Source: Escherichia phage ManiWeber_Bas99
Sequence record: PQ850618.1
Direction: 5' to 3' (one strand)
Length of the DNA stretch: 64,000 bases
Shown here piece after piece: positions 1 to 58,798 of this stretch. The position numbers and the translations under genes were made by a program. The notes under the pieces are model-generated. The model ran no database searches and had not been told where the DNA came from. It saw nothing but the letters and a program-made list of their open reading frames with translations. Numbering within the stretch: position 1 is the first letter of the stretch; each line of letters starts with the position of its first letter.

Positions 1-267
1 GGTCCAAATCTGAAGTCGCCGAAAGTCTTTATCGTGAACCAAAACGATAACTACTCTGGCGAGTTTGATGAACACAAGTGTATGCTTGGATTCGATTCAG
101 CAGAAGAAGCGAAAGAAGCTTATCAAGCATCATTTGGTAACGGTTGGAACGGATTCGACTCAATCCACGAATTAGATGTGAACTCATTCAAGGAGTGGTT
201 GAAGGGTGATTGCTCTCAAGCATACGGAGCACTCAATAATCCTACTAATTCACCGAAGCAAGGTTGA
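1..267 (+). CDS. 3' end of a gene continuing upstream of the window (possibly portal, by position only)
   Basis: Frame is open from base 1 to the stop at 265-267; sits directly upstream of the head morphogenesis gene. Confidence 0.35.
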   Translation, partial: GPNLKSPKVFIVNQNDNYSGEFDEHKCMLGFDSAEEAKEAYQASFGNGWNGFDSIHELDVNSFKEWLKGDCSQAYGALNNPTNSPKQG

Positions 268-268
268 T

Positions 269-1120
269 ATGGCTTTTAAAGCTTCGAAAAAACGTGAACG
301 CCGCTCACCCGATAGAGTCGGGCGCGGCAGTCCGATAATCCCATCCAACGCTATTGCGATGGCCTATCGTCGTGAGATGAAAGGTCTTTGCTATGCGATG
401 ATTGACGACTATCAAGCAGGAATTGCTGAGTGGCTTGAAAAGAAGCAGGTTAAAAAGTTCTTTGCGCAAGACTCTGCTGATTCAACTTTTCAGACCTTGA
501 TGAAGCGACTGCAACTGAAATGGGCAAAAGCTTTCGCCCGTGTCGGGTCAAAGATTGCCGCAGATTTCATCAAGTCAGTTGAAAAGGGTGCCACTTCTGC
601 TACATTTGCAAGTCTTAAATCTGCAGGAATAGAAGCGCCAAAAGCCACATATAATAAATTCGTTGAGAACACTCTTAAAACAAGCGAGACGTTCAACACG
701 ACTTTAGTGACTAAGGTTGGCGAAGATATTCACAACAGGGTGTACGAAGCGGTGATGCTTTCGCTGACTTCGCCAGACCCAGCGCAACAAGGCACGTCAG
801 GCATTCAGGCGGCATTAAGAAATGTAAAACACTTCTCTGCAAAACGCGTAGACCTTATCGCTAAAGACCAAACGAGCAAACTTTATTGCGTATTAAGTGA
901 TGAAAGGATGCGACAGAATGGCGTTGAGGAATTTGAGTGGGCGCATTCAGGAGCAGGCAAAGAGCCGCGAATATCGCATGAGCATGTCGATGGAATGAGA
1001 TTCAAGCTTGATGACAAACGCTTATGGGAAGTAGGTGGAGAACTTAAGTTCAAAAAGGGTGACATCGGTCCTCCTGGATGGGCGATACACTGCAAGTGCA
1101 GAAAAATACCAATTATCTGA
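269..1120 (+). CDS. Head morphogenesis protein (Mu gpF / SPP1 gp7-like)
   Basis: ATG at 269 follows AAGG; about 284 aa; C-terminal W..G..HCKCR motif resembles the Mu F-like family; sits in the head module. Confidence 0.55.
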   Translation: MAFKASKKRERRSPDRVGRGSPIIPSNAIAMAYRREMKGLCYAMIDDYQAGIAEWLEKKQVKKFFAQDSADSTFQTLMKRLQLKWAKAFARVGSKIAADFIKSVEKGATSATFASLKSAGIEAPKATYNKFVENTLKTSETFNTTLVTKVGEDIHNRVYEAVMLSLTSPDPAQQGTSGIQAALRNVKHFSAKRVDLIAKDQTSKLYCVLSDERMRQNGVEEFEWAHSGAGKEPRISHEHVDGMRFKLDDKRLWEVGGELKFKKGDIGPPGWAIHCKCRKIPII

Positions 1121-1127
1121 GGTCATT

Positions 1128-2048
1128 ATGACGATACCAATCAACACATTCCCTCTATCTGGACAAACTCCAGTCTTGCCTGCGGTGTATGCTAATGGCT
1201 TGGCGATTGTCTCAGAATTCACTTCTGATAAAAACTTGATTGTTCCACTGAGCCCGCCGCTTGCATCGGGGTACAACTCAGTAGGTCAATTCTTTATGAT
1301 TGGCAATGATGGCGATTCGACCAGCAAGCCTAATCTGACATTGTCTGTACCTAAGATGAACATCACCGACGTTCAAACTGGCTTGACTGCATCAACAATC
1401 ACCATTGCTTTTGGAGAAGCAGTGATTATAGGAATGGAGTCTGGAGGGTCCAAGAATGCTGTCGCCGTTAAGGTAGTCAAATCCAGCGACAACCAATACA
1501 CTTTACCAGCTGCGACGGCTTCCGTTCTCGGCGGCGTCAAAATAGGAAGCGGAATAAGCGTCGCAGGTGACGGTACAATTAGCGTCACTCAATACTCATT
1601 GCCGATTGCGTCAGCATCTACTTTAGGCGGCGTAAAGGTCGGTACAACTCTATCAATTGATGGTTCCGGTGTGCTTAACGCAGCGGCAAGCACCGTCCAG
1701 AATGCCACGAACAGTGTTAGCAATCCTCCAACCACTTTGGTTAATCTGGCAACATTAAACCTTCCTGCAGGCAAGTGGCTGGTCACGGCAAGCCAATTGA
1801 CCGTTGCAACAGCAGGCGTTCAAGCGAATACCGGAATTACAGTCAAATTGTCAACAAGCAATTCAGATATTACGGATGATGCATTTACCATGTCAGCTGG
1901 CATTCGGGCTGCAGGTCGTTTCGGCGGCAACATCCCAACAAAAGTAATTACTCTTGCCGCGCCTGGTAATGTGTATTTAAACTATCAGTGCACCGACGCG
2001 TTGACATCTACCGTTTACGGACAGATCACCGCAATTAAGCTGAACTAA
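1128..2048 (+). CDS. Fibre-like repeat protein (virion-associated)
   Basis: Internal ATG after GAGG; repeated LGGVK(I/V)G..(I/L)S(V/I).G.G motifs as in phage fibre repeat domains. Confidence 0.4.
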   Translation: MTIPINTFPLSGQTPVLPAVYANGLAIVSEFTSDKNLIVPLSPPLASGYNSVGQFFMIGNDGDSTSKPNLTLSVPKMNITDVQTGLTASTITIAFGEAVIIGMESGGSKNAVAVKVVKSSDNQYTLPAATASVLGGVKIGSGISVAGDGTISVTQYSLPIASASTLGGVKVGTTLSIDGSGVLNAAASTVQNATNSVSNPPTTLVNLATLNLPAGKWLVTASQLTVATAGVQANTGITVKLSTSNSDITDDAFTMSAGIRAAGRFGGNIPTKVITLAAPGNVYLNYQCTDALTSTVYGQITAIKLN

Positions 2049-2222
2049 AGAGGAAGTTATGCAAAAGATTATTCAGTCACGTTATGTTAAAGTGCGAAAT
2101 ATTAATTGCAACTCTTTGCTTTCTTGGAAATGGGCTGTTTATGACTCGATGTTGATTGGCGTTTTAGTGGCAGGAGTGCTATTTAATATTCACTGAATTC
2201 ATCGGCAAAGGATTGCCGAGAG

Positions 2223-2505
2223 TTTTATACGTATAATGACGTATCATCCGTATCAAGTAAGTTGTTGTTTTCAAAAGAATCTTACGGATGATACGGATGA
2301 TACGCGTTGCCGCCGTACTATATAGGAATTCAAATAAATTAATTTAAAATTATATATCTAATTTAATTTTATTTTTTTATAAACTCTTATATGTGAAAAG
2401 TATCCGTATCATCCGTATCATCCGTATCACACCAGTGATAGCGCGGCTTATACACCGATACGGATAAAAATACGCCTCATTTTATCCGTATCATCCGTAT
2501 CACAC
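2223..2505. repeat. Iteron module A: inverted arrays of the 9-mer TCCGTATCA flanking an AT-rich core
   Basis: GTATCATCCGTATCA about 2241-2255; reverse copies about 2282-2304; about 70 bp of more than 85% AT at about 2325-2395; three tandem copies at about 2401-2430 and two at about 2482-2503. Confidence 0.7.
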
Positions 2506-2611
2506 TAATAAAGGCGCGGCTATATCGGTTGTTATACATATTCAAACCATAATTATTGTTTGCCTAAGTTTTTTTCATTAGATATAATACACAATACTTA
2601 TTTGAGGGTGG

Positions 2612-4030
2612 ATGCGAATGCAAACGGCACGCGAAATTGACAAAAATGGATTCTTGACGATTATGGGTTGTCCGATTTCGTCATTTGGCATTTTTGATTA
2701 TTCTGCTGGTCAAGTTGGTCTTGATGGTGATCCGAATCGCATCGTAAAAGTCTATCGCCCTGAGTCAGCGGTGAAAGACCCCGAAGCGATAGATTCATTC
2801 AAAAATATCCCTTTCATCGACAATCACGAAATGCTTTCTGGATTTGAAGGTGATGAGGATAACACAGCACCCGAAGAGTATGGCGTTGATGGCGTTCTAA
2901 CTGGCAATGTTTATTATGACAAGCCATGGATGCGCGGCGACCTTAAAGTGTTTAGCCGTCGTCTGAAGAAGGCCATTGATTCTGGAAAGGTTGACTTGTC
3001 TTTGGGCTATGACTGTGAATTCATCATACAGTCTGGAGAGTTTGACGGGCAGCCGTATGAAGTGGTACAGACAACTCTTCGCGGCAACCACATTGCTCTC
3101 GTGGACGTTGGTCGAGTACCAGGTGCACGGGTGCTGGATGGTCGTTGCTTTGACCATCTTTGTTTGACGACTGTAACACCATCCAACGAGGATTTAGACA
3201 TGCCAAAACCGTTAAAAGGTAAAGCGCGTGATAATGCTGTTGAACAGCTGAAATCACTGATCCCTGCGCTCGAACAATTTCTGAATGAAGAGAGCACCGA
3301 AGCGGCTCATCAGGACGAAGTTGAAGTGAAAGCAGAAGAGAAGGATTCAACCGAAGAACGTGAAGAAGTGATGGTTGATCCAGAAGTTAAAGCAGAAGCT
3401 GAAGAAACTCCAGAAGGTGAAGAGAAGTTTGAAGTTGAAACTGAATCTCACGCTGGCGGCGAGCTTCCGCAACTGATCAGCCAAATCGAAGCACTTATTG
3501 CAAAACTGAAAGGTGGCGCGGTAGGTGATGAAGAAGAAGTTGAAGCCGAAGTCAAAGACGAAGAAGTTGAAGTCAAGGCTGAAGATGTATCACCTTGCGA
3601 CAAAGCTGAAGATGTGGTTAGCGGCCTGCAAAACAGCAACGTAAAGGGGGCTTCGGTCGAAAAAGATGACAAACCGACAAAAGCGGCGAAAGCGTCGCCA
3701 GGTCCAGCAAAAGGGGAACACTCAATGGCATCTGATTCAGCAGTTGCTGCTTTCTACGCTGATTCTGCTCGTAAGAATAGCCTCTACCAGCGCCTGTCTA
3801 AAGTTGTTGGTGCCTTTGATCATGCAACTATGGACTCCAAGTCCGTAGCGAAATATGGCGCTAAAAAGTTAGGCTTGAAGTGCGTTGATGGTGCTGAGTT
3901 TGACGTGGTGGATAATTATCTGCGCGGCGTTGAACACGGTCAAAAACAGCGTGTAGTCGCAAAACAAAAGGCCGCTGCGGATTCTGCAGCGACTGACGAA
4001 GCATTTGAAGCTTGGTTGAAAGGGGAATAA
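2612..4030 (+). CDS. Putative prohead protease / scaffolding protein
   Basis: 472 aa; highly acidic E/V/K-rich central region typical of scaffolds; sits between morphogenesis and capsid genes; RBS GAGGG. Confidence 0.4.
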   Translation: MRMQTAREIDKNGFLTIMGCPISSFGIFDYSAGQVGLDGDPNRIVKVYRPESAVKDPEAIDSFKNIPFIDNHEMLSGFEGDEDNTAPEEYGVDGVLTGNVYYDKPWMRGDLKVFSRRLKKAIDSGKVDLSLGYDCEFIIQSGEFDGQPYEVVQTTLRGNHIALVDVGRVPGARVLDGRCFDHLCLTTVTPSNEDLDMPKPLKGKARDNAVEQLKSLIPALEQFLNEESTEAAHQDEVEVKAEEKDSTEEREEVMVDPEVKAEAEETPEGEEKFEVETESHAGGELPQLISQIEALIAKLKGGAVGDEEEVEAEVKDEEVEVKAEDVSPCDKAEDVVSGLQNSNVKGASVEKDDKPTKAAKASPGPAKGEHSMASDSAVAAFYADSARKNSLYQRLSKVVGAFDHATMDSKSVAKYGAKKLGLKCVDGAEFDVVDNYLRGVEHGQKQRVVAKQKAAADSAATDEAFEAWLKGE

Positions 4031-42032: not shown

Positions 42033-43115
42033 ATGGCTAGTTTAAGAGAAGAAGCAAAAATAATCGAAGAGTTTTTAACAGAACTCCAAAGAGGCATTCC
42101 AGAAGATGAGCGCGTCATGACGGTGTTTGCGCCTGAAGCAACGGTGCAGACTGACGAGCGCGGCAAGAAGATTAACAGCAGCTTCTGGCCTAAGCCTTGG
42201 AAGTTGGGCAAGCCGCTCATGCAGCACCAAAACGGCTATGCCTGCATCAGTTCAATGCGTAAGTCTCCCAACCCGAAGACGGGTGAGATGCGATACTGGC
42301 GTACAGAGTCAGCCTTTGGTCACGGTATGGCGATGATGGTCGACGACATCGGTCACGGTAAAGGGTCCAAAGGCGATTTAGATTTGGAATTCTTTTTCGA
42401 GCGACTGAAGCCGACTGTCATTGTCGAGACGTCACCGAACAACCACCAGCTGTGGTACTTCTTTAAAGAACCAATTGACCATCTTATTCAGTTCAAAGCA
42501 TTCCTTGGGTCTTTCGTAAACATGGTACTCAAGAAGGGCGGCGACAACACGATTAAAGACGTAACGCGCGTGGGCCGTGTTCCTGGGTGCATCAACAACA
42601 AGCGCGTGACTCACGACGGCCCCTATAAATATGTCGATGAGAACGGCGACCCGTTCCGCTGCCGACTTGTCCATGCAGATTACTCCTTGCGCTACACCAT
42701 CGAAGACATTTGTCAGGCATTCGGCTTTCACGTTGTAATGCCGCAAAAGCGTGAGATTCAAATTGACGTCGATGAATACAAATACGATGCTGTTTGGTAT
42801 AAGATAGCCCAGCAGATTCTAGCGCGCAACAAGATGGGTGAAGGGTCTGATGGCGACGTTATCGAGAATATGTCAGGTAAGTGTCGCATAATCTGTCCTT
42901 GGGGTGAAGAGCACACCAACGGCGACCCGTATGGCGCTTACTTTCGCGGCCCTATCCCTGGTGCAGAACATGAATTTGTGTTCGGTTGCGCCCACGACTG
43001 TCACCGGAAAGGGGAAGGCAAGAAAGGTTGGACCGCTTTTGTTGAAGCAATCGTCATGCCTTATATTGAGAATCAACTTGACATGATAAATCGTCGTGCA
43101 GGTGGCATAAAATAG
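42033..43115 (+). CDS. Primase, archaeo-eukaryotic (AEP/PrimPol-like) type
   Basis: 360 aa; acidic MMVDDIGHG motif, ETSPNNHQLWYFF motif, C-terminal Cys/His cluster CPWGEEH...CAHDCH. Confidence 0.5.
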   Translation: MASLREEAKIIEEFLTELQRGIPEDERVMTVFAPEATVQTDERGKKINSSFWPKPWKLGKPLMQHQNGYACISSMRKSPNPKTGEMRYWRTESAFGHGMAMMVDDIGHGKGSKGDLDLEFFFERLKPTVIVETSPNNHQLWYFFKEPIDHLIQFKAFLGSFVNMVLKKGGDNTIKDVTRVGRVPGCINNKRVTHDGPYKYVDENGDPFRCRLVHADYSLRYTIEDICQAFGFHVVMPQKREIQIDVDEYKYDAVWYKIAQQILARNKMGEGSDGDVIENMSGKCRIICPWGEEHTNGDPYGAYFRGPIPGAEHEFVFGCAHDCHRKGEGKKGWTAFVEAIVMPYIENQLDMINRRAGGIK

Positions 43116-44425: not shown

Positions 44426-46096
44426 ATGTCAATTAATAATGACAATCTTCCAGAGGATACAGGTGATGAATTTGGTGCAATCTTTGACGAAATTCAAGAT
44501 GCAGGCGTTTCGGAAGAAATGCAGGCAGCAGAGCAGCAAGGCACCAGAGCTAAAATCAGCCTTCAACATAAAGCCGTTGAAAAAGATTCAGAGCGCATGG
44601 AATGCTACGGTGAAGAAGACTTGGTTGAAAGAGCACGCTTGCTCGCCTCACTTCAGGTAATCAAGTTCCCTCACTACAAGCCTACCAAAGATGACTTCGT
44701 TCTACAGGCAGACCGGACGAGTGACATGAACCGTTATGCGGTTTTCGACGCGTTGTTTGATAAGGGAAGTGGCATTGTTCCATTCCCTCACAAAGATACT
44801 TTTCGTGGGCGCTTAGTCGACCATCGCGGCGAAACATTCACTGACCGTACCTTGGAAGTCACAGAGATAGTTGCCGCTGTCGACGCAGCAGGGCTGTCCA
44901 ACCCAAACTCACGTCAGGTCGCTCAATCCTATAAGGAATGGGCCATGCGTTATCAGCGCGACGACCTGATGGACTTCTTCTACAAGAAGCTGCCTGAATG
45001 GGACGGTACTGCGCGCATCGAGAAATACCTTATCGAGCTATTCCGACCGTTCGATACAGAGTTAAACCGACGAATCGGTGTGTATTTTTGGCTATCGCTC
45101 TATAACCGCCTGACCAACCCTGGCTGTCAAGCGCCAATCTCCATCGCGCTCATCGGCGGCCAGAACGCAGGGAAGAGTTATTTTAGCAAGCTGCTTTGCG
45201 AAGCTATTATGAACGACCGCCACGCAACACCGATTCCGTTGAACTTAGCCGCGCAAAACTTCAACCCGTTCTTGCGCGCCATCACGGGTCGCTCCATTAT
45301 CGCGAACGTTGGCGAGATGACAGGCTTTAAAAAGGCTGACATCGAAAACATGAAAGCATTCCTGACTAAGACGGAAGACGACCTGGACTTCAAATTTGAA
45401 GATACACAGGTTAAACCACGCCAGTGGATTGCTATTATGGACGGCAACGAATACGCAGGCATGCAGCGTGATGACACGGGCAACCGTCGTGTGTATCCTA
45501 TCTTTGTTGGCCAACTTGCCGACAAGGACGGGCAGCCGAACTGGTCGAAAGACTTCCAAGCTGACCTTTCCACTTTGAAAGAAGACGTTTGGCAGTTGAT
45601 GGCTGAGTGCGCTGCGTGGATGGAGAAGCACGGCGAAGCAGGCTATAACGCGTTTGTTGGTGAAACATCTCGCATGCTTACTGAGTTCAGTAAAAACGAA
45701 ATGGAACGCGCTCGCGGCGTTATCCGTGATGAGATGGTTGACAACGACCTTGTTGAAGTCGTCATCACCGCGCCTTATGACCGACATCACAGCGGACGCT
45801 GGCACATCACCAGTGGTGCTATTGCTATGGGATTCAGAGCGAAGTGTGGCAAGTCGCCTTTCTCTCGTACCCTTGCGCCACACATGTCGAAGCTTGGTTT
45901 TGAGCCTGCAACCTATCGCAACCAGCGCGGTTACTTTACGCCGCTGATTAAGAATGAAGCAGGAGAATACATTTCTGATTTGATGACCATCTTAGCGTAT
46001 CTTATTCGCGATGAGTCTGACCCTGAAGATATTGAATTCTTGAAGAAGGTTATCGAGCGTAAACGTTCTTTGGGAAGAGATAAGGATGAATTCTGA
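44426..46096 (+). CDS. VirE-like / primase-associated P-loop NTPase
   Basis: 556 aa; Walker A LIGGQNAGKS; size and architecture resemble VirE/D5-type helicases. Confidence 0.5.
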   Translation: MSINNDNLPEDTGDEFGAIFDEIQDAGVSEEMQAAEQQGTRAKISLQHKAVEKDSERMECYGEEDLVERARLLASLQVIKFPHYKPTKDDFVLQADRTSDMNRYAVFDALFDKGSGIVPFPHKDTFRGRLVDHRGETFTDRTLEVTEIVAAVDAAGLSNPNSRQVAQSYKEWAMRYQRDDLMDFFYKKLPEWDGTARIEKYLIELFRPFDTELNRRIGVYFWLSLYNRLTNPGCQAPISIALIGGQNAGKSYFSKLLCEAIMNDRHATPIPLNLAAQNFNPFLRAITGRSIIANVGEMTGFKKADIENMKAFLTKTEDDLDFKFEDTQVKPRQWIAIMDGNEYAGMQRDDTGNRRVYPIFVGQLADKDGQPNWSKDFQADLSTLKEDVWQLMAECAAWMEKHGEAGYNAFVGETSRMLTEFSKNEMERARGVIRDEMVDNDLVEVVITAPYDRHHSGRWHITSGAIAMGFRAKCGKSPFSRTLAPHMSKLGFEPATYRNQRGYFTPLIKNEAGEYISDLMTILAYLIRDESDPEDIEFLKKVIERKRSLGRDKDEF

Positions 46097-53860: not shown

Positions 53861-54349
53861 CCTGTGTAATGGGAGGCTTTTGTGGTTATTTACGATTCAA
53901 GGCTGTAATTTAAGAGAGCGAAAATATTATAATAATTTATCAAGATTATTGCATATTGTGGCAATCAACGTTTATACGTATTTATGACAGTTTAATCCAC
54001 TAAATAATACGGATAGAACAGTGAGGAAAATACAGCGGTGTATTTTAGTGTAAATATTGAATCAAAAATAAATAATTATGGTGCTATTATATACGCAGAT
54101 TGTTTGTAATTTATAGGATATTTTATCGTGGAGTATTGGCTAACGGTGCGTTAGCCGTGGGTCTTGGTGCTTGTGGTGTTGATGCTCAGAATTTTAATAA
54201 TGTTTTTAGTTTTAGTAATCGTAGTCAATGATGATACGTATAAGAAAATGAGAGTCACCCCTTCACAGGATATTGTACCGTGGCCCTGTGGCGCGCCGCG
54301 CCTGGGATTGCTGGTATACACTGGTGCTATTTTGCCGCGAAGGCAGTCA

Positions 54350-54685
54350 TTCATACGTATCATGACGTATCATTGGGCTATTGATTTATAAGGAAAAATA
54401 CGCTGATACGGATGATACGGATGCAAACATAATATATATAGAATTCCAGAAAATTAATTAACTCCATTTTGAATTAATTTAAATTAATTTTTTTCTACAT
54501 CCTCATACTTATACTAAACTTATATTTATACGTATTATCCGTAAGATATAAGTAAAAACAAAGACTTGCGGCAATACGGATGATACGTCATGATACGCTT
54601 CAACCAGCCAGCAGCGGCTAAGTCATTGATTTGCATAGCAAGCGGCGAAAGGGATGGATTTCTTTTATACGTATCAAACAGTACA
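54350..54685. repeat. Iteron module B: same repeat family and architecture as module A
   Basis: ACGTATCATGACGTATCAT about 54354-54373; reverse copies about 54404-54423 and 54574-54597; AT-rich core about 54424-54530; TTTTATACGTAT shared with module A. Confidence 0.7.
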
Positions 54686-54826
54686 CCACGCACCACGGTC
54701 CGTTATCCATTCAGCAATATGATTTGTGTACGTTTATAGCCATAATGAACATCAATCTGCACTTGAATATAATGTTCATCCATTGTATAATTCACACTAT
54801 TAATTTGCACTATGGGATTTTGCACT

Positions 54827-55300
54827 ATGAGTCAAGATTATGTAGCGATGCCTGAAGACTTTGAAGACCCGCGATTTGCAGAGCACAATCAGGCTTTATT
54901 CGATGAGTTCATTGACCTTGTTATTCAGGGCCATGACATGCGCGCAGCTTTTGCACTAGTATTTGGAATGGAAGTTGCAACGGATAACTACACTGGCCAG
55001 CGAATCCTTTGCACGCAACGCAATCCATACTACAAGATGCGCTTCAAAAAGCGTATGGAAGAGATGCCACTCAAGGATTTGTGGAGCGTAAAAGGTGCAA
55101 TTCACAATTTGGTTAAGCTTGTGCGTGATCCAGAAGTCGCAGCGTCAGCCAAGCTTAATGCTATTCGTGAACTGAATATCATCTACGGCATCACGATGAT
55201 TGATGAAAACGGCAATAGTAAAATGGGCCGTTCCATGGACGATTTCTACAAGGATTTTGGAGAGGCGGCCAAAGAAGGTGAGCAATTCTCCCGCCACTAG
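54827..55300 (+). CDS. Putative DNA-binding protein (possible terminase small subunit)
   Basis: ATG overlapping an 11-mer copy; about 157 aa; helix-turn-helix-like N-terminus; adjacent to iteron module B; assignment tentative. Confidence 0.3.
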   Translation: MSQDYVAMPEDFEDPRFAEHNQALFDEFIDLVIQGHDMRAAFALVFGMEVATDNYTGQRILCTQRNPYYKMRFKKRMEEMPLKDLWSVKGAIHNLVKLVRDPEVAASAKLNAIRELNIIYGITMIDENGNSKMGRSMDDFYKDFGEAAKEGEQFSRH

Positions 55301-55317
55301 CCAATTTGCACTATAAA

Positions 55318-55355
55318 ACGGCCCTAGAACACATCTTCTCCACTTCTAGGGCCAT
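55318..55355. other. Strong hairpin GGCCCTAGAA-(14)-TTCTAGGGCC
   Basis: Perfect 10-bp stem directly downstream of 54827-55300; weak T-tract on the minus strand. Confidence 0.4.
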
Positions 55356-55728
55356 CGGTAATACGACGGGGAAGGTTACAACCATAAACGCGTTAGAAAG
55401 TGTATTATTATAAGTCATCTTTTAGTCACTTTACGTAACAATTTACGACCTTCAGCCGTCCAATCGAACGACTCCACCAGCAGATTCGCACTATAACCTA
55501 AGATGATGCGCCCTTTCTCGTTATCGACCCGCCAACAAGTCTCGAATAGCATTCGATTTGCACTATTAACTATCGCCGCAACGCGCGTAGGGTAAACGCA
55601 ATTTGCACTATGGTCATAAAGGGATAAGGTGCGACCACTTCCGATGGACAACGTAGCGATGAGAATGAGCGTATTCATAAGCCACCAATTTGCACTATGA
55701 AAAGCGACCCCGAAGGGCCGCCATTCGA

Positions 55729-56355
55729 TTAGATAATCTGGAAGGTGTAGGACTTGTTGCCGAACTCGAAGTTCAAGCGCCCAGCTTCCTTAAGCTTCAT
55801 GCGGAAGCGAATGTGCTTGCTATCCGGTAATCCCAGCGCGGCGAACGCTACGCGGACCGATTTGAACTCGCCTACACCCTCGACCATGACACCGTTACGG
55901 GTAAGACGCTTTTGCGCCACTTCCTTATTATCCCAGCTTTTTGCAATACCTTCGCTATTCGAACGGCGATGGGAAGGAGTTCCATTTTGCACTACGCAAT
56001 TTGCACTATCGTTTAAACCGCTCTTAACGAAGGCTTCATATTCTTCGTCGGTCATCGCGTCGAGTTCTTCCTGGGTCGGCTCAGCCTTTTTAACGACCGC
56101 ACGCGCCTTATGCGTTTTTACATCGCTGGACACTTCCTCGCGCGACTTCGCGTCTGGGATGGGCGATTCGTTGGACGGCTCATCTAGCGCGTTTAAGGAC
56201 TCGATTAACGCGATGACGCGAGTCTCAGCGGTCCGGCGGTCCGAAAATTTCTTAATCGGCTTCGAACCGGAATTTGCATTATAAAATGCAACGAGGTCGG
56301 CGGTCTTAGTTGCGATAACGTCGCCGCTAGTCGAGAAACGATTTAAGCTAACCAT
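55729..56355 (-). CDS. Hypothetical protein in the CG-rich island
   Basis: 208 aa; strong RBS TAGGAG; codon and dinucleotide usage differ from the rest of the window; contains 11-mer copies. Confidence 0.4.
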   Translation of the reverse strand: MVSLNRFSTSGDVIATKTADLVAFYNANSGSKPIKKFSDRRTAETRVIALIESLNALDEPSNESPIPDAKSREEVSSDVKTHKARAVVKKAEPTQEELDAMTDEEYEAFVKSGLNDSANCVVQNGTPSHRRSNSEGIAKSWDNKEVAQKRLTRNGVMVEGVGEFKSVRVAFAALGLPDSKHIRFRMKLKEAGRLNFEFGNKSYTFQII

Positions 56356-56435
56356 AATAAACTCCTATTTGTTAGGGCGCTAGGCGCGAAAGAATTTTAT
56401 TAAAGCGCCGCGCACGACGCTCTAAAAATCCTCTC

Positions 56436-56720
56436 TTACGCTTCGACGAGGGAGAAGGTCTCAAATTCTTCTTCGCCCATAACGAGTAAGATATTACCGA
56501 TTTCGACCGCTTCGAAGAAATATCCGTTAACGTTTACTTCGAAGGCTTCGCGGTCCGATTCCGGTAGCGCCGCGTAAAGTTTAAAAGCCTCGGCGACCGT
56601 TACCCCACCCGCCTCGATAGTTTGGCCTACGTTCGCGGCGTAGACTTCGGATAAAATTTGTTTTACGCCGTAGTTCTCGACGATAGCGTTACGAATAGAA
56701 GAAACGTTAAGAATAGCCAT
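56436..56720 (-). CDS. Small acidic protein, island paralog A
   Basis: 94 aa; RBS AGGAG; paralog of 57355-57645 (NVNGYFFEAVEIGNILLV vs TINGFVYTITEIGGEYLAV). Confidence 0.45.
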   Translation of the reverse strand: MAILNVSSIRNAIVENYGVKQILSEVYAANVGQTIEAGGVTVAEAFKLYAALPESDREAFEVNVNGYFFEAVEIGNILLVMGEEEFETFSLVEA

Positions 56721-56744
56721 TTTAAACTCCTAGTTGGGAGAGGC

Positions 56745-56818
56745 GTTAACGACCTATTCGTTAACTCATCCCGTCCCGATATGAGTACATTATAATATAG
56801 TGTAGAAAAAAGTAAAGC
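56745..56818 (-). promoter_or_regulatory. Promoter and structured leader of paralog A (minus strand)
   Basis: Minus-strand -35 TTTACT (plus about 56811-56816), -10 TATAAT (plus about 56789-56794); leader hairpin TTAACGA-ATAGG-TCGTTAA (plus about 56746-56764). Confidence 0.5.
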
Positions 56819-56858
56819 ACTTTTTCGATAAAAATGCGATAAATTATTTTATCTTTTT

Positions 56859-56890
56859 TCTTTACTTCTTCGTACACTCGCGTATACTTG
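56859..56890 (+). promoter_or_regulatory. Promoter of paralog B
   Basis: CTTTACTTCTTCGTACACT block: -35 TTTACT, 16-bp spacer, -10 TATACT; back to back with the paralog A promoter. Confidence 0.45.
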
Positions 56891-56944
56891 TTTATATCGA
56901 GACGGGCGATGGCCCTTTCTTCTACTAGCATCGGGAGCTTTATT

Positions 56945-57247
56945 ATGACTACTTTAATCTCTTCCATCCTTACTTACGACGAAGACCGCTTAACCGTTCG
57001 CTCTCTTATCGCCGCCGTTAACGCGGAACTAGAATCTAGCGCCATTAAGGTCCGCGCGGTCGCCTTCATCGGCCTTTCCTTCGACGATATGAAGTATGCC
57101 GAACGTAGCGCCATCCGCTTCGCGAAGACCGACGACGAAGCCGTTACCCTTATCGAGACGGTTACGCCGCGCGGCGAAGCGTTAATTATCGTCGAGTATA
57201 TCGACGTAGAAGGCGATAAATCTTATAAACATTTTATCGCAGAATAA
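56945..57247 (+). CDS. Small acidic protein, island paralog B (distant)
   Basis: Internal ATG after GGGAG; about 100 aa; weaker similarity to A and C. Confidence 0.4.
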   Translation: MTTLISSILTYDEDRLTVRSLIAAVNAELESSAIKVRAVAFIGLSFDDMKYAERSAIRFAKTDDEAVTLIETVTPRGEALIIVEYIDVEGDKSYKHFIAE

Positions 57248-57256
57248 CGAAAAAGT

Positions 57257-57331
57257 GCTTTACTTCTTCGTACACTAAGACTATAATGTTTTATATCGAG
57301 AGGGGATGAGGTAGCGAATAGGTCGCTGCCC
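57257..57331 (+). promoter_or_regulatory. Promoter and structured leader of paralog C
   Basis: -35 TTTACT (about 57259-57264), 17-bp spacer, -10 TATAAT (about 57282-57287); leader hairpin GTAGCGA-ATAGG-TCGCTGC (about 57311-57329); about 80% identical to the paralog A leader. Confidence 0.5.
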
Positions 57332-57354
57332 TCCCGACCAACTAGGAGATTATT

Positions 57355-57645
57355 ATGATTACTTTAGCCGCTATCCGTTCCGCTCGCGTCGAGACTTCCG
57401 AAAACTCTAACGTATTTGGCGAAACCTTAGAGAGCGTTTATCTCTCTAACGTAGACGCAACTATCGAATCCATTTATGAGCCGATCAACTTCCTCGACCT
57501 TTACAAGTATCGCGATGAGGACATCGTGTCTTGCCGCGTAACGATCAACGGCTTCGTCTATACGATTACCGAAATCGGCGGCGAATATCTCGCGGTCCCG
57601 CAACTCGGCGGCGAAGTAACTTATTTTAAAATCGTCTCCTTATAA
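57355..57645 (+). CDS. Small acidic protein, island paralog C
   Basis: 96 aa; RBS AGGAG; paralog of 56436-56720. Confidence 0.45.
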   Translation: MITLAAIRSARVETSENSNVFGETLESVYLSNVDATIESIYEPINFLDLYKYRDEDIVSCRVTINGFVYTITEIGGEYLAVPQLGGEVTYFKIVSL

Positions 57646-57663
57646 TACCCTTCCGTTACTAAT

Positions 57664-57692
57664 AGGCCGCGCTTAGTCGCGGCTTTTCTTCG
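57664..57692 (+). terminator. Rho-independent terminator after paralog C
   Basis: GGCCGCGCTTAGTCGCGGCTTTTCTT: GC stem plus T-run. Confidence 0.55.
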
Positions 57693-57810
57693 CCCCTATC
57701 TCGGTGCGCTCCTACGCGAAAACTCCTTTATCCTTACCTTCGTCGTCGCATAATCTTCGTCGAGATGCTCCTTAGTTCGCATAACAGGTATTACGTTAAA
57801 TGGAGAACAT

Positions 57811-58095
57811 CGCGTAAGTCGTTGTTTTATATAGACACCTATATCGGACCGTTAGCGAGGGTCGCGTAAGTCGTTGTTTTATAAAGGCGCAAAACTTTCC
57901 CTTCGTTCCGAACTAAAACGAGGAATATGCCGACCCTTCGCCCGAAAATAGTACGCATGCGATATTACCGACATCTAGAATAATCCCTCCCGATATTATT
58001 ACGCGCTCAATCATTAGCTTTCGAATCATTATGCTGCATACTATTATGCGCCAAATCATTAGCCTTCGAATTGTAACGCTGGAAACTGTAACGTC
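57811..58095. repeat. Noncoding stretch dense in direct repeats
   Basis: 21-bp CGCGTAAGTCGTTGTTTTATA twice (about 57811-57831 and 57863-57883, 52 bp apart); AATCATTAGC(T/C)TTCGAAT twice (about 58008-58026 and 58053-58071); TGTAACG twice; no convincing ORF. Confidence 0.6.
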
Positions 58096-58351
58096 GATTG
58101 ATTATTGCGTTCGTGTGGTTTTTAGGACATGGGTCTTTTGGTGCGTTTTGCTACTTGATGGAATTTGCAGTACACTAATCAAAATACGACACATTTGGTC
58201 CACTAACTTTTCAAAGAAAAAGTCCTAGACAGTACCGTACTATTTTGTACCCACAGGAAATTTGCCGTACACTCCTGCGCGGCAGGCAAAAATAAAGGGC
58301 CGCACTAAGCGACCCACAACCCACGATTCACGGTTAAATCAGCAACACCCA

Positions 58352-58798
58352 CTATTCACTCTTATGGGCATCACCAAAGCCATCAGCAATCTGGCTGATC
58401 AACGACTCAATGGACACGGTTTTACCAATTGATCGAGCGGTAATAGCAAGCATATTATCAATCAAACCACGATTGACTTCACATGTTCCAGGCTTTGACT
58501 CATCTTTAGGACCACCAAAAAGCTGGTCGCGCAGACTTTCAAGAGAACGCTCAATATTTTCCAACTTCTCTTCTAAATCGGATTGGCGACGTAAAACCCA
58601 CGTCAAGTCACGGTTGCCAACTTCCAATCCATCAGAATAGCAAGGTGGAGCGTCAATTTTGATGCTGGAACCAAAAGCAATGCCGCTGCCTTTAGTATAT
58701 GTGTGGCTAATAGAATCATTTTTATTTGACATATCATTACCTTTAATATTTGGGTGATTAACAATAACTATAATAAAGCCGCATAGCGCGGCATTCAA
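58352..58798 (-). CDS. Hypothetical protein
   Basis: 148 aa ORF (possibly starting at internal MSNKND...); coiled-coil-like middle. Confidence 0.3.
   Translation of the reverse strand: MNAALCGFIIVIVNHPNIKGNDMSNKNDSISHTYTKGSGIAFGSSIKIDAPPCYSDGLEVGNRDLTWVLRRQSDLEEKLENIERSLESLRDQLFGGPKDESKPGTCEVNRGLIDNMLAITARSIGKTVSIESLISQIADGFGDAHKSE

What the first reader, a model, noticed from the sequence alone, without database searches (positions are those of the whole stretch)
54790..56290. Same-orientation 11-mer ATTTGCACTAT repeated about 10 times in 1.5 kb, inside and outside coding sequence
About ten copies of ATTTGCACTAT (or one-mismatch variants) occur on the + strand only. Four lie within 40 bp upstream of the 54827 start, one of them overlapping the ATG. 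Others lie between genes and inside the minus-strand gene 55729-56355. Track ORF 55415-55678 (minus) is largely made of these copies and encodes repeated SAN tripeptides, so it is probably not a real gene. Strict orientation bias and density argue for a DNA-level signal. Candidates are a centromere-like or partition site, an operator array for the adjacent DNA-binding protein, or promoters for a phage-modified RNA polymerase.
Basis: seen in the sequence. Interest (0 to 1): 0.6.

Follow-up and report, generated by a model that had tools for sequence, protein, structure and literature searches.

The report
One-strand 11-mer array beside small terminase
A conserved one-strand array of about a dozen copies of an 11-base word sits in the terminal repeat of this E. 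coli phage, from the small-terminase gene onward, and is most likely a set of protein docking sites, possibly the signal that marks the DNA for packaging.

Summary
ATTTGCACTAT occurs 6 times exactly, 3 times with one mismatch and 3 times with two. All copies are on the + strand within 54790-56282. No other copy at up to one mismatch exists in the 64 kb window.

The window is a Wifcevirus, an E. coli myovirus of about 68 kb. The array lies inside its 3.7 kb direct terminal repeat (DTR), 325-1817 bp from the left physical end. It starts at the promoter and ATG of gene 54827-55300. That gene is the small terminase (TerS), a homologue of the solved E217 TerS (PDB 7UXE).

The copies are kept in place in eight other Wifcevirus genomes. 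The same word, ATTYGCACTAY, recurs on the same strand and in the same place in Pantoea Kylevirus phages, whose TerS is only 43% identical. More distant relatives lack it.

My best reading is a binding-site array for a phage protein, most likely TerS, used for packaging recognition and possibly terS autoregulation (confidence 0.4). Rivals are the conserved 208-aa DTR protein, origin or priming sites, a host factor, and a Chi-like polar signal. Promoter, centromere and DnaA-box readings failed their tests.

It is under purifying selection and has a homologue in phage Kyle.

The parts
54466..58138 (.). Direct terminal repeat (DTR) of the phage genome. The left boundary is the physical left end. 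The right boundary is 58138 by the Mansfield determination or 58219 by the WFC determination.
   Evidence: Mansfield PhageTerm repeat 1-3673 was mapped onto the window. The WFC record carries both copies, 3784 bp at 100% identity, with the same left boundary.
54763..54791 (+). Sigma-70-like promoter of terS (TTGAAT-17-TATAAT). The first three motif copies cover roughly its +1 to +40 region.
   Evidence: Consensus scan, 10 of 12 matches. Function is inferred.
54790..54800 (+). Motif copy ATTCACACTAT (2 mismatches), first of a tandem triplet spaced 13 and 15 bp.
   Evidence: Invariant in 9 Wifcevirus genomes.
54803..54813 (+). Motif copy, exact.
54818..54828 (+). Motif copy TTTTGCACTAT lying between the ribosome-binding site and the ATG of terS, overlapping the ATG. 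After a 1-nt deletion it is an exact ATTTGCACTAT in six of the eight other genomes aligned.
54827..55300 (+). terS, the small terminase (157 aa).
   Evidence: phmmer match to PDB 7UXE (E217 small terminase decamer), E = 7e-34 over residues 3-147. phrog_4783. Annotated as terminase small subunit in Mansfield.
54949..54959 (+). Weak copy TTTTGCACTAG inside terS. It may be a by-product of conserved Ala-Leu codons.
55304..55314 (+). Motif copy, exact, 3 nt after the terS stop codon and just before the hairpin GGCCCTAGAA...TTCTAGGGCC.
55415..55678 (-). Real gene (87 aa, signal-peptide-like N-terminus) that carries three motif copies, each read as Ser-Ala-Asn.
   Evidence: Purifying selection. Homologue Kyle gp2.
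55474..55481 (-). The only Chi site (GCTGGTGG) in the repeat. It lies 2 nt upstream of motif copy 55484 and is oriented to act on RecBCD entering from the left end.
55484..55494 (+). Motif copy ATTCGCACTAT. It is an exact ATTTGCACTAT in six of the eight other genomes aligned.
55556..55566 (+). Motif copy, exact. It encodes the NSAN residues, at the same place in the gene as the NSAN-encoding copies in Kyle, PA1 and L156.
   Evidence: The position in the gene was worked out by reading the frames by eye.
55601..55611 (+). Motif copy, exact.
55688..55698 (+). Motif copy, exact, between the start of the 87-aa gene and the stop of the 208-aa gene.
55729..56355 (-). Conserved 208-aa DTR protein of unknown function. 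It is the alternative candidate binder.
   Evidence: Homologues in Kyle gp4, MyoSmar gp1 and PS44 gp02. phrog_4730. No Pfam match.
55985..55995 (+). Weak copy TTTTGCACTAC, paired at 14 bp with the next copy. It lies in the variable linker of the 208-aa gene and is absent in ECML-117 and RCIP0319.
55999..56009 (+). Motif copy, exact. Absent in ECML-117 and RCIP0319.
56272..56282 (+). Motif copy ATTTGCATTAT. It is degraded in WFH, ECML-117 and RCIP0319.

Best explanation
The array is a set of cis-acting binding sites for a phage-encoded DNA-binding protein that acts on the terminal repeat. The most likely binder is the small terminase, whose gene the array starts in.

In this model TerS decamers load on the same-orientation sites that begin about 325 bp inside the left genome end. 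This marks phage concatemers for the large terminase and gives the packaging complex its polarity. The three tandem sites over the terS promoter, ribosome-binding site and ATG would let TerS limit its own synthesis.

**Shown here:**
- the array and its strand bias;
- its position relative to the physical end and to terS;
- its conservation in two genera;
- the identity of TerS.

**Inferred:** that TerS is the binder, and that binding serves packaging.
For: 1. **Non-random and polar.** Every copy is on one strand.
2. **Selected at the DNA level.** Copies lie in intergenic DNA, in a + strand gene and in two - strand genes. One copy sits at the matching NSAN codons of the 87-aa gene and its Kyle, PA1 and L156 homologues, although the Wifcevirus and Kyle proteins are only 28% identical.
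3. **Conserved in position.** The copies from 54790 to 55698 are held in place in 8 other Wifcevirus genomes. Several one-mismatch copies in the window are exact in the others.
4. **Conserved across genera.** Kylevirus phages have 14 (Kyle), 13 (PA1) and 9 (L156) same-strand copies of ATTYGCACTAY. They run from within terS to the 3' end of the homologue of the 208-aa gene.
5. **Position typical of a packaging site.** The array starts at or within terS, where pac sites of P22, Sf6, SPP1 and T4 lie (established knowledge). It is next to the physical end, which two independent determinations place at 54466.
6. **TerS identity is firm.** The match to PDB 7UXE has E = 7e-34.
7. **A correlated change in TerS.** The two residues before the conserved NPYY are QR, RR, KR and KR in the four motif-bearing lineages. 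They are E-S, E-S, E-F, E-A, E-H, E-A and E-R in seven of the nine lineages without the motif, D-A in Gekk3-15, and E-E-S in L161, where the alignment is less certain. All of these carry an acidic residue there.
8. **Fits published work on E217 TerS.** It showed no appreciable DNA binding in vitro, its over-expression lowers infectivity, and its C-terminal helix was proposed to build higher-order oligomers (PMC9611059, read). E217 has no such array.
Against: - No binding data exist, and the solved homologue did not bind DNA in vitro.
- The array spans 1-1.5 kb with irregular spacing (13-486 bp) and no helical phasing. Known TerS sites occupy about 100-300 bp.
- The TerS substitution and the motif arose on one branch (NJ bootstrap 65%), so they count as a single correlated event.
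- The 208-aa protein shows a comparable clade-specific signature.
- In Kyle no copy lies at the terS promoter, so autoregulation is not a conserved feature.
- In Kylevirus the oriented Chi arrays at the same end suggest that this end is the one exposed to RecBCD. By analogy with lambda-like phages (PMC12315714), that would be the end not held by terminase.
- Within the genus, third-codon positions inside the copies of the 87-aa gene vary about as often as the background: 3 of 12 against 22 of 88 (hand count).
Confidence: 0.4

Rival explanations
1. The sites are bound by another phage protein encoded in the terminal repeat, most plausibly the conserved 208-aa protein (55729-56355, - strand). 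The complex would serve some other terminal-repeat function, such as recombination between repeats, end protection or regulation of the repeat's genes.
For: - The 208-aa protein is conserved in the terminal repeat of MyoSmar and close to terS in Kyle, PA1 and Pbunavirus PS44.
- Its C-terminal segment PDSKHIRFRMKLKE is identical in Wifcevirus, Kyle and PA1. It differs at 2-3 positions in each of MyoSmar, L029, Gekk3-15 and PS44, which lack the motif.
- In Kyle and PA1 the array ends just beyond the 3' end of this gene. In the Wifcevirus genomes aligned the conserved copies end there too.
Against: - No family, fold or DNA-binding domain could be assigned. That the C-terminal domain is a helix-turn-helix is only my impression from its sequence pattern.
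- The correlation reflects the same single evolutionary event as for TerS.
Confidence: 0.18
2. The array is a replication element. It could be iterons of an origin, or strand-specific start sites for the phage's primase or primase-helicase, sending synthesis rightwards from the left end.
For: - Same-orientation repeats are typical of origins.
- An AT-rich stretch (54466-54800) flanks the array.
- The phage encodes two primase-type proteins (42033-43115 and 44426-46096).
- The primase-polymerase of phage NrS-1, a primase of the archaeo-eukaryotic type, starts at a specific 8-nt template word, TTTGGTTA (PMC8718748).
- Unrelated viral contigs carry true iterons containing TTGCACTAC, spaced 19-39 bp (mostly 21-24), inside O-like or HTH_36 initiator genes. 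One of them is followed by a DnaA box.
Against: - Spacing is irregular and wide, not the 21-23 bp of iterons.
- No initiator gene is nearby; the primase genes lie 8.7-12.8 kb away.
- There are no DnaA boxes in the repeat.
- Relatives with primase/helicase genes of the same kind annotated near terS (MyoSmar, Maja, Gekk3-15, XcP1) lack the array.
- The iteron contigs were found because the search pattern selected for them.
Confidence: 0.12
3. The array is read by a host protein or by a translocating enzyme on the incoming DNA end. Two versions are possible: a T5-like injection pause or anchoring site (DnaA or another host factor), or a Chi-like polar signal for a helicase-nuclease entering from the left end.
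For: - The array sits at the same end, on the same strand and interleaved with 7-9 correctly oriented Chi sites in Kyle, PA1 and L156. Some abut, as in ATTCGCACTAcCCACCAGC in Kyle and CCACCAGCagATTCGCACTAT in the window.
- The same word is kept in phages of two different hosts.
- The long terminal repeat of T5 holds conserved repeat arrays and DnaA boxes proposed to stop injection (bioRxiv 10.1101/866236).
- ATTTGCACT matches the relaxed DnaA box TTWTNCACA at 7 of 9 positions.
Against: - The positions that are invariant in the motif (the G, and the TA after CAC) are not those a DnaA box needs. The two box-end positions both mismatch. No true box occurs in the repeat.
- The motif bears no resemblance to any Chi sequence I know of.
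- Serratia relatives keep the Chi arrays but have no GCACTA array. This argues against a general enterobacterial host factor.
Confidence: 0.1
4. The copies are promoters, or operators at promoters, for a phage-modified or phage-encoded RNA polymerase.
For: - The word ends in CACTAT(A/G), which recalls the 3' part of T7/SP6-type promoters.
- It matches the T4 MotA box (WWWTGCTTYA) at 8 of 10 positions. Both resemblances are recalled from memory.
- Three copies lie just upstream of terS.
Against: - Eight of the twelve copies point into or against convergently transcribed genes. In Kyle, 9 of the 14 lie in or beside - strand genes.
- No copy has a -10 element at MotA-type spacing (read).
- None scores as sigma-70-type.
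- The word is absent from the other 60 kb of the window, where middle and late genes would need promoters.
- The scanned proteins include no RNA polymerase or sigma factor, though not every gene was scanned.
Confidence: 0.04

Closest known systems
pac / cosB small-terminase recognition sites (lambda R1-R3, SPP1 pacL/pacR boxes, P22 and Sf6 pac inside the terS gene, P1 pac hexamers)
   Same: Short repeated words in or next to terS, close to the site where the genome end is made, thought to be read by the N-terminal domain of a ring-shaped TerS.
   Different: - This array has 10-14 copies spread over 1-1.5 kb with irregular spacing, running through three genes on both strands. Known sites have 2-7 copies within about 100-300 bp.
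- The phage has exact 3.7 kb direct terminal repeats. The packaging signals of that genome type are poorly understood (PMC13595956).
Repeat arrays in or beside the terminal repeats of T5 (repeat regions with nine DRD direct repeats and DnaA boxes; proposed injection stop signal) and of T7 (SRL/SRR short repeats; recalled from memory)
   Same: Conserved short direct repeats inside or next to a terminal repeat, conserved across relatives although flanking genes diverge, with function not yet proven.
   Different: - The T5 arrays are in a long untranslated region, mixed with inverted repeats and palindromes, and contain true DnaA boxes.
- Here half the copies are inside genes, there are no palindromes, and there are no DnaA boxes.
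Terminally clustered, oriented Chi sites in phages (LLS, P1, MD8; PMC12315714)
   Same: Strictly oriented short words clustered near one genome end. In the sister genus Kylevirus, real Chi arrays are interleaved with this motif.
   Different: The word is not Chi. The window itself has a single Chi in the repeat, and no enzyme is known to read ATTTGCACTAT.
Origin iterons inside lambda O-like initiator genes
   Same: Same-orientation repeats embedded in coding sequence. Unrelated viral contigs have iterons containing TTGCACTAC.
   Different: Iterons are tandem at about 22 bp and lie inside the initiator's own gene. Here the spacing is 13-486 bp and no initiator gene is present.

Membership tests
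TerS recognition site (pac/cosB type) | Lies in or next to the small-terminase gene | tested here: met
   The array starts 37 bp upstream of terS and runs through and beyond it. TerS identity rests on PDB 7UXE, E = 7e-34.
TerS recognition site (pac/cosB type) | Lies close to the site where the genome end is generated | tested here: met
   The first copy is 325 bp from the left DTR boundary at 54466, fixed by two independent records.
TerS recognition site (pac/cosB type) | Specifically bound by TerS | not testable with these tools
   Only indirect evidence exists: a basic-for-acidic change in TerS helix 3 restricted to the motif-bearing clade. E217 TerS did not bind DNA in vitro (PMC9611059).
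TerS recognition site (pac/cosB type) | Required in cis for packaging | not testable with these tools
   Needs genetics or a transduction assay.
TerS recognition site (pac/cosB type) | Compact, about 100-300 bp | tested here: not met
   The core is 54790-55698 (about 900 bp). The full spread is about 1.5 kb.
Replication-origin iterons | Tandem direct repeats at about two helical turns (roughly 21-23 bp) | tested here: not met
   Spacings are 13, 15, 486, 180, 72, 45, 87, 297, 14 and 273 bp, with no phasing.
Replication-origin iterons | In or next to an initiator gene, with DnaA boxes or an AT-rich unwinding element | tested here: inconclusive
   No initiator was recognised in the repeat. There are no DnaA boxes. 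An AT-rich stretch does lie upstream.
DnaA boxes | Match to TTWTNCACA | tested here: not met
   The best register matches 7 of 9 positions, with both end positions wrong. No relaxed box occurs in the repeat, and only 2 occur in the whole window, both elsewhere.
Chi sites | GCTGGTGG in the orientation met by RecBCD from a nearby end | tested here: not met
   The motif is unrelated in sequence. One true Chi lies at 55474-55481.
Promoters (sigma-70, or a phage-specific RNA polymerase) | Placed upstream of co-oriented genes, with -35/-10 or an equivalent architecture | tested here: not met
   Only 3 of 12 copies precede a co-oriented gene.
Plasmid or phage centromere (parS/parC) | Adjacent partition ATPase and centromere-binding protein genes | tested here: not met
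   None among the terminal-repeat proteins scanned against Pfam and PHROGs. The phage group is described as virulent.
T5-type repeat regions in the terminal repeat (injection stop signal) | [quoted passage not shown] | tested here: not met
   Only direct repeats are present, half of them inside genes, and there are no DnaA boxes.

The most novel reading that the evidence does not exclude
The word is a polar signal read by an enzyme that moves in from the left genome end. It would be a phage-specific counterpart of Chi, or a roadblock or loading site, that works alongside the true Chi arrays found interleaved with it in Kylevirus. It would control the fate of the exposed DNA end through protection, RecA-type loading or repeat-to-repeat recombination, rather than packaging.
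Probability: 0.08. Interest if true: 0.8.

Novelty: new variant of a known kind. Interest (0 to 1): 0.5.

Why it matters
[quoted passage not shown] For the E217-type small terminase, a solved decamer from a group that includes therapy phages, no DNA target is known.

A conserved, easily mutated 11-mer array that begins in terS gives a concrete candidate target. It can be tested with oligonucleotides and purified protein. Because the sister genera lack it, there is a natural comparison set.

If the binder is not TerS, the array still marks an unknown function of the terminal repeat, placed at the same genome end as the Chi arrays.

Tried and rejected
**Readings rejected**
- Sigma-70 promoter scan: the copies are not promoters.
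- Rfam at E up to 1 over 54300-58400: nothing.
- RNA-level reading: + strand copies lie in genes transcribed from both strands, so no single transcript would carry them all.
- DnaA boxes: 7 of 9 at best, and none in the repeat.
- MarA/SoxS box, sigma-54, Tus/Ter, the EcoKI site and the T4 MotA box were compared by eye from memory. None fits the invariant positions or the spacing.
- Helical phasing: none.

**Tests that lacked power**
- Within-genus conservation: motif columns are not clearly more conserved than flanks overall (3.1% against 2.8% mean variability). This is because the copies in the 208-aa gene are variable and the genus is only 3-7% divergent.

**Searches that led nowhere**
- Literature search for the word: no relevant paper.
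- The E217 terminase paper itself is not held.
- AlphaFold2 on TerS without an alignment: poor model, pLDDT 47, not used.
- Two protein-database searches for the 208-aa protein returned almost only near-identical Wifcevirus copies and no annotation.
- The one divergent hit, P0121, proved to be PA1-like.
- Pfam at E up to 10 gave nothing credible.
- The viral-contig pattern scan returned mostly chance pairs, coding tandem repeats and unrelated iterons.
Full report
**1. What the window is**

The region 54400-56800 is 93-97% identical to 28 phage records, all of the genus Wifcevirus: WFC, WFH, ECML-117, FEC19, Mansfield and the BASEL phages Bas98-101. These are virulent E. coli/Shigella myoviruses of 66-72 kb, distantly related to the Pseudomonas Pbunavirus group.

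In phage Mansfield a 3673 bp direct terminal repeat (DTR) was determined with PhageTerm. Its first base maps to window 54466 and its last to about 58138. The WFC record carries both repeat copies (3784 bp, 100% identical). It has the same left boundary and a right boundary at window 58219. The finding therefore lies inside the terminal repeat, 325-1817 bp from the left physical end of the genome.

**2. The observation**

- ATTTGCACTAT at up to one mismatch: 9 matches against 2.04 expected (maximum 7 in 100 shuffles). All are on the + strand within 54803-56282.
- Allowing two mismatches adds 54790, 54949 and 55985, also on the + strand.
- The 8-mer ATTTGCAC at up to one mismatch occurs 16 times on the + strand of the repeat and never on the - strand.
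- The part of the genome missing from the window has no copy in Mansfield.
- The consensus with flanks is c-A-ATTTGCACTAT.

Three copies, not four, precede the start codon. The 87-aa ORF holds three copies and is not 'largely made' of them.

**3. Anatomy**

| Copy or feature | Position | Context |
|---|---|---|
| Sigma-70-like promoter | 54763-54791 | TTGAAT-17-TATAAT |
| Tandem triplet | 54790, 54803, 54818 | Spaced 13 and 15 bp; covers the start of the terS transcript, its ribosome-binding site and the ATG at 54827 |
| Single copy | 55304 | 3 nt after the terS stop, before a hairpin |
| Three copies | 55484, 55556, 55601 | Inside the - strand 87-aa gene, each read as Ser-Ala-Asn |
| Single copy | 55688 | Between the 87-aa gene and the - strand 208-aa gene |
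| Three copies | 55985, 55999, 56272 | Inside the 208-aa gene; the first two in its variable linker |

Spacing is irregular and shows no 10.5 bp phasing. Close pairs at 13-15 bp recur, both here and in a relative.

**4. The neighbouring genes**

- *Gene 54827-55300 is the small terminase.* It matches PDB 7UXE, the decameric TerS of Pbunavirus E217, with E = 7e-34 over residues 3-147. The large terminase gene begins about 8.6 kb further on, at the end of the window. In Pbunavirus PS44 the two are only 1.3 kb apart.
- *The 87-aa ORF is a real gene.* Among nine Wifcevirus genomes 19 variable codons are synonymous and 7 are not, and 22 of 28 variable sites are at codon position 3. The two shifted frames give 1/24 and 5/22. 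Kyle gp2 is a homologue (28% identity, E = 4e-11).
- *The 208-aa protein is widely conserved.* Homologues are Kyle gp4, MyoSmar gp1 and PS44 gp02, in the repeat (MyoSmar) or close to terS. No family or fold could be assigned.

**5. Conservation**

Within Wifcevirus the copies from 54790 to 55698 are in place in all eight other genomes. Two of the window's one-mismatch copies are exact matches in six of them. The three copies in the 208-aa gene are missing or degraded in some genomes, where the linker has a different sequence.

Across genera the Pantoea phages carry same-strand copies of ATTYGCACTAY. These run from inside terS to the 3' end of the homologue of the 208-aa gene.

| Phage | TerS identity | Same-strand copies |
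|---|---|---|
| Kyle | 43% to the window | 14 |
| PA1 | 60% to Kyle | 13 |
| Metagenomic L156 | 52% to the window | 9 |

One copy sits at the matching NSAN codons of the 87-aa gene and its homologues in all four lineages. So the array is older than the split of the two genera and has survived almost complete turnover of the surrounding sequence.

The array is absent from Serratia MyoSmar and L029, Pbunavirus PS44 and E217, Xanthomonas XcP1, Burkholderia Maja, Aeromonas Gekk3-15, and metagenomic L025/L159, L157 and L161.

**6. Who reads it**

Two phage proteins change together with the motif.

In TerS, the two residues before the conserved NPYY are:
- QR, RR, KR and KR in the four motif-bearing lineages;
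- E-S, E-S, E-F, E-A, E-H, E-A and E-R in seven of the nine lineages without the motif;
- D-A in Gekk3-15, and E-E-S in L161, where the alignment is less certain.

In the 208-aa protein the C-terminal stretch PDSKHIRFRMKLKE is identical in the motif-bearing lineages. It differs at 2-3 positions elsewhere.

The motif-bearing lineages form one clade (65% bootstrap). Each correlation is therefore one evolutionary event and only suggestive.

I favour TerS for three reasons:
- The array starts in its gene, next to the genome end, which is where terminase recognition sites usually lie.
- The change in TerS is a charge reversal in the third helix of its N-terminal region. I take that region, from its sequence pattern, to be the DNA-binding domain; the structure model could not confirm this.
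- E217 TerS, which has the acidic version and no array, did not bind DNA in vitro (PMC9611059).

**7. Alternatives tested**

- *Promoters:* rejected on placement and architecture.
- *Known RNA families:* none.
- *DnaA boxes:* rejected.
- *Origin iterons:* the spacing is wrong and no initiator is present. However, strand-specific priming sites cannot be excluded. The phage has two primase-type genes, and at least one primase-polymerase of the archaeo-eukaryotic type (phage NrS-1) reads an 8-nt word. A pattern scan of viral contigs turned up genuine iterons spaced 19-39 bp (mostly 21-24) that contain TTGCACTAC, inside O-like or HTH_36 initiator genes. This shows such a word can serve an initiator, but those hits were selected by the pattern.
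- *Chi-like polar signal:* not excluded, see section 8.

**8. An unexpected companion**

In Kyle, PA1 and L156 the same stretch also holds 7-9 true Chi sites. All are oriented to act on RecBCD entering from the left end. MyoSmar and L029 have 4 each, plus one-mismatch variants. The window has one, at 55474-55481, 2 nt from a motif copy.

Terminal clusters of oriented Chi are known in lambdoid phages and P1 (PMC12315714). This makes the left end look like the end exposed to RecBCD.

This cuts both ways. It keeps open a reading in which the 11-mer acts on the incoming or free end rather than in packaging. It is also the main argument against a lambda-like arrangement with terminase sitting on this end.

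**9. Verdict**

This is a real, conserved, strand-polar cis element in the terminal repeat. It has not been described in the literature I could search. The best explanation is a small-terminase binding array (0.4). It is a new variant of a known kind, namely repeated protein-binding words at phage genome ends. Interest is moderate, because it gives a directly testable DNA target for a structurally solved but functionally opaque TerS family and for packaging of genomes with direct terminal repeats.

Noticed in passing
L004 255-1972; L013 3861-5433; L156 1625-3322; L006 5653-5993; L029 179-1276; window 55474-55481: There are oriented Chi (GCTGGTGG) arrays at the terS-proximal end of the terminal repeat. 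Kyle has 9, PA1 has 7, L156 has 7, and MyoSmar and L029 have 4 each plus many one-mismatch variants. All are in the orientation active for RecBCD entering from that end. The window keeps only one. This resembles the terminal Chi clusters reported for lambdoid phages and P1, but I did not find it reported for these myovirus genera.
   Followed up: partly
window 58162-58176 and 58259-58273; L004 3636, 3975; L013 7674, 8135; L006 4570; L029 9: A second repeated element, AATTTGC(A/C)GTACACT, flanks the right DTR boundary in the window. Kyle and PA1 have AAATTCAC-n-GTACACT just beyond or near their right boundary. In MyoSmar, GTACACT lies 22 nt inside the terS-proximal boundary, and in L029 it lies 9 nt from the start of the locus. 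It shares ATTTGC and ACT with the array word and could belong to the end-cutting signal.
   Followed up: partly
window 56861-56888 and 57259-57287: Two sigma-70-like promoters in the repeat share an identical 18-nt stretch, TTTACTTCTTCGTACACT, covering the -35 element and spacer. This suggests a common regulator or a recent duplication.
   Followed up: no
Its homologue is Kyle gp2.
   Followed up: yes
window 55729-56355 (-): This 208-aa protein has a conserved N-terminal block (LVAFYN...KPVKKFSDRxTAE) and a conserved C-terminal block (EFKSVRxAFxALGLPDSKHIRFRMKLK), joined by a variable acidic linker. It lies in the terminal repeat of MyoSmar and close to terS in Kyle, PA1 and Pbunavirus PS44, and matches no Pfam family or solved structure.
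   Followed up: partly
L015 4669-4679 and 4741-4751: Burkholderia phage Maja has two perfect, co-oriented DnaA boxes (AGTTATCCACA) 72 bp apart, just downstream of its terS. It also has five copies of GATAGTTAA upstream of terS. None of the other relatives examined has a DnaA box near terS.
   Followed up: partly
L005 300-600; L017 3684-3762: Pbunavirus PS44 and E217 have a G-poor, C/A-rich tract with repeated CCACC/CCCACCATC units just upstream of terS, including one E. coli-type Chi.
   Followed up: no
L103 619-763, L137 3029-3165, L143 1359-1425, L148 1010-1118: Unrelated viral contigs carry iterons spaced 19-39 bp (mostly 21-24) that contain TTGCACTAC, inside O-like or HTH_36 replication-initiator genes. 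In L143 they are followed by a DnaA box. This is a lambda-type layout, with the origin inside the initiator gene.
   Followed up: partly
window 58138 versus 58219: The right boundary of the terminal repeat differs by about 80 bp between the Mansfield (PhageTerm) and WFC determinations, whereas the left boundary agrees to the base.
   Followed up: no
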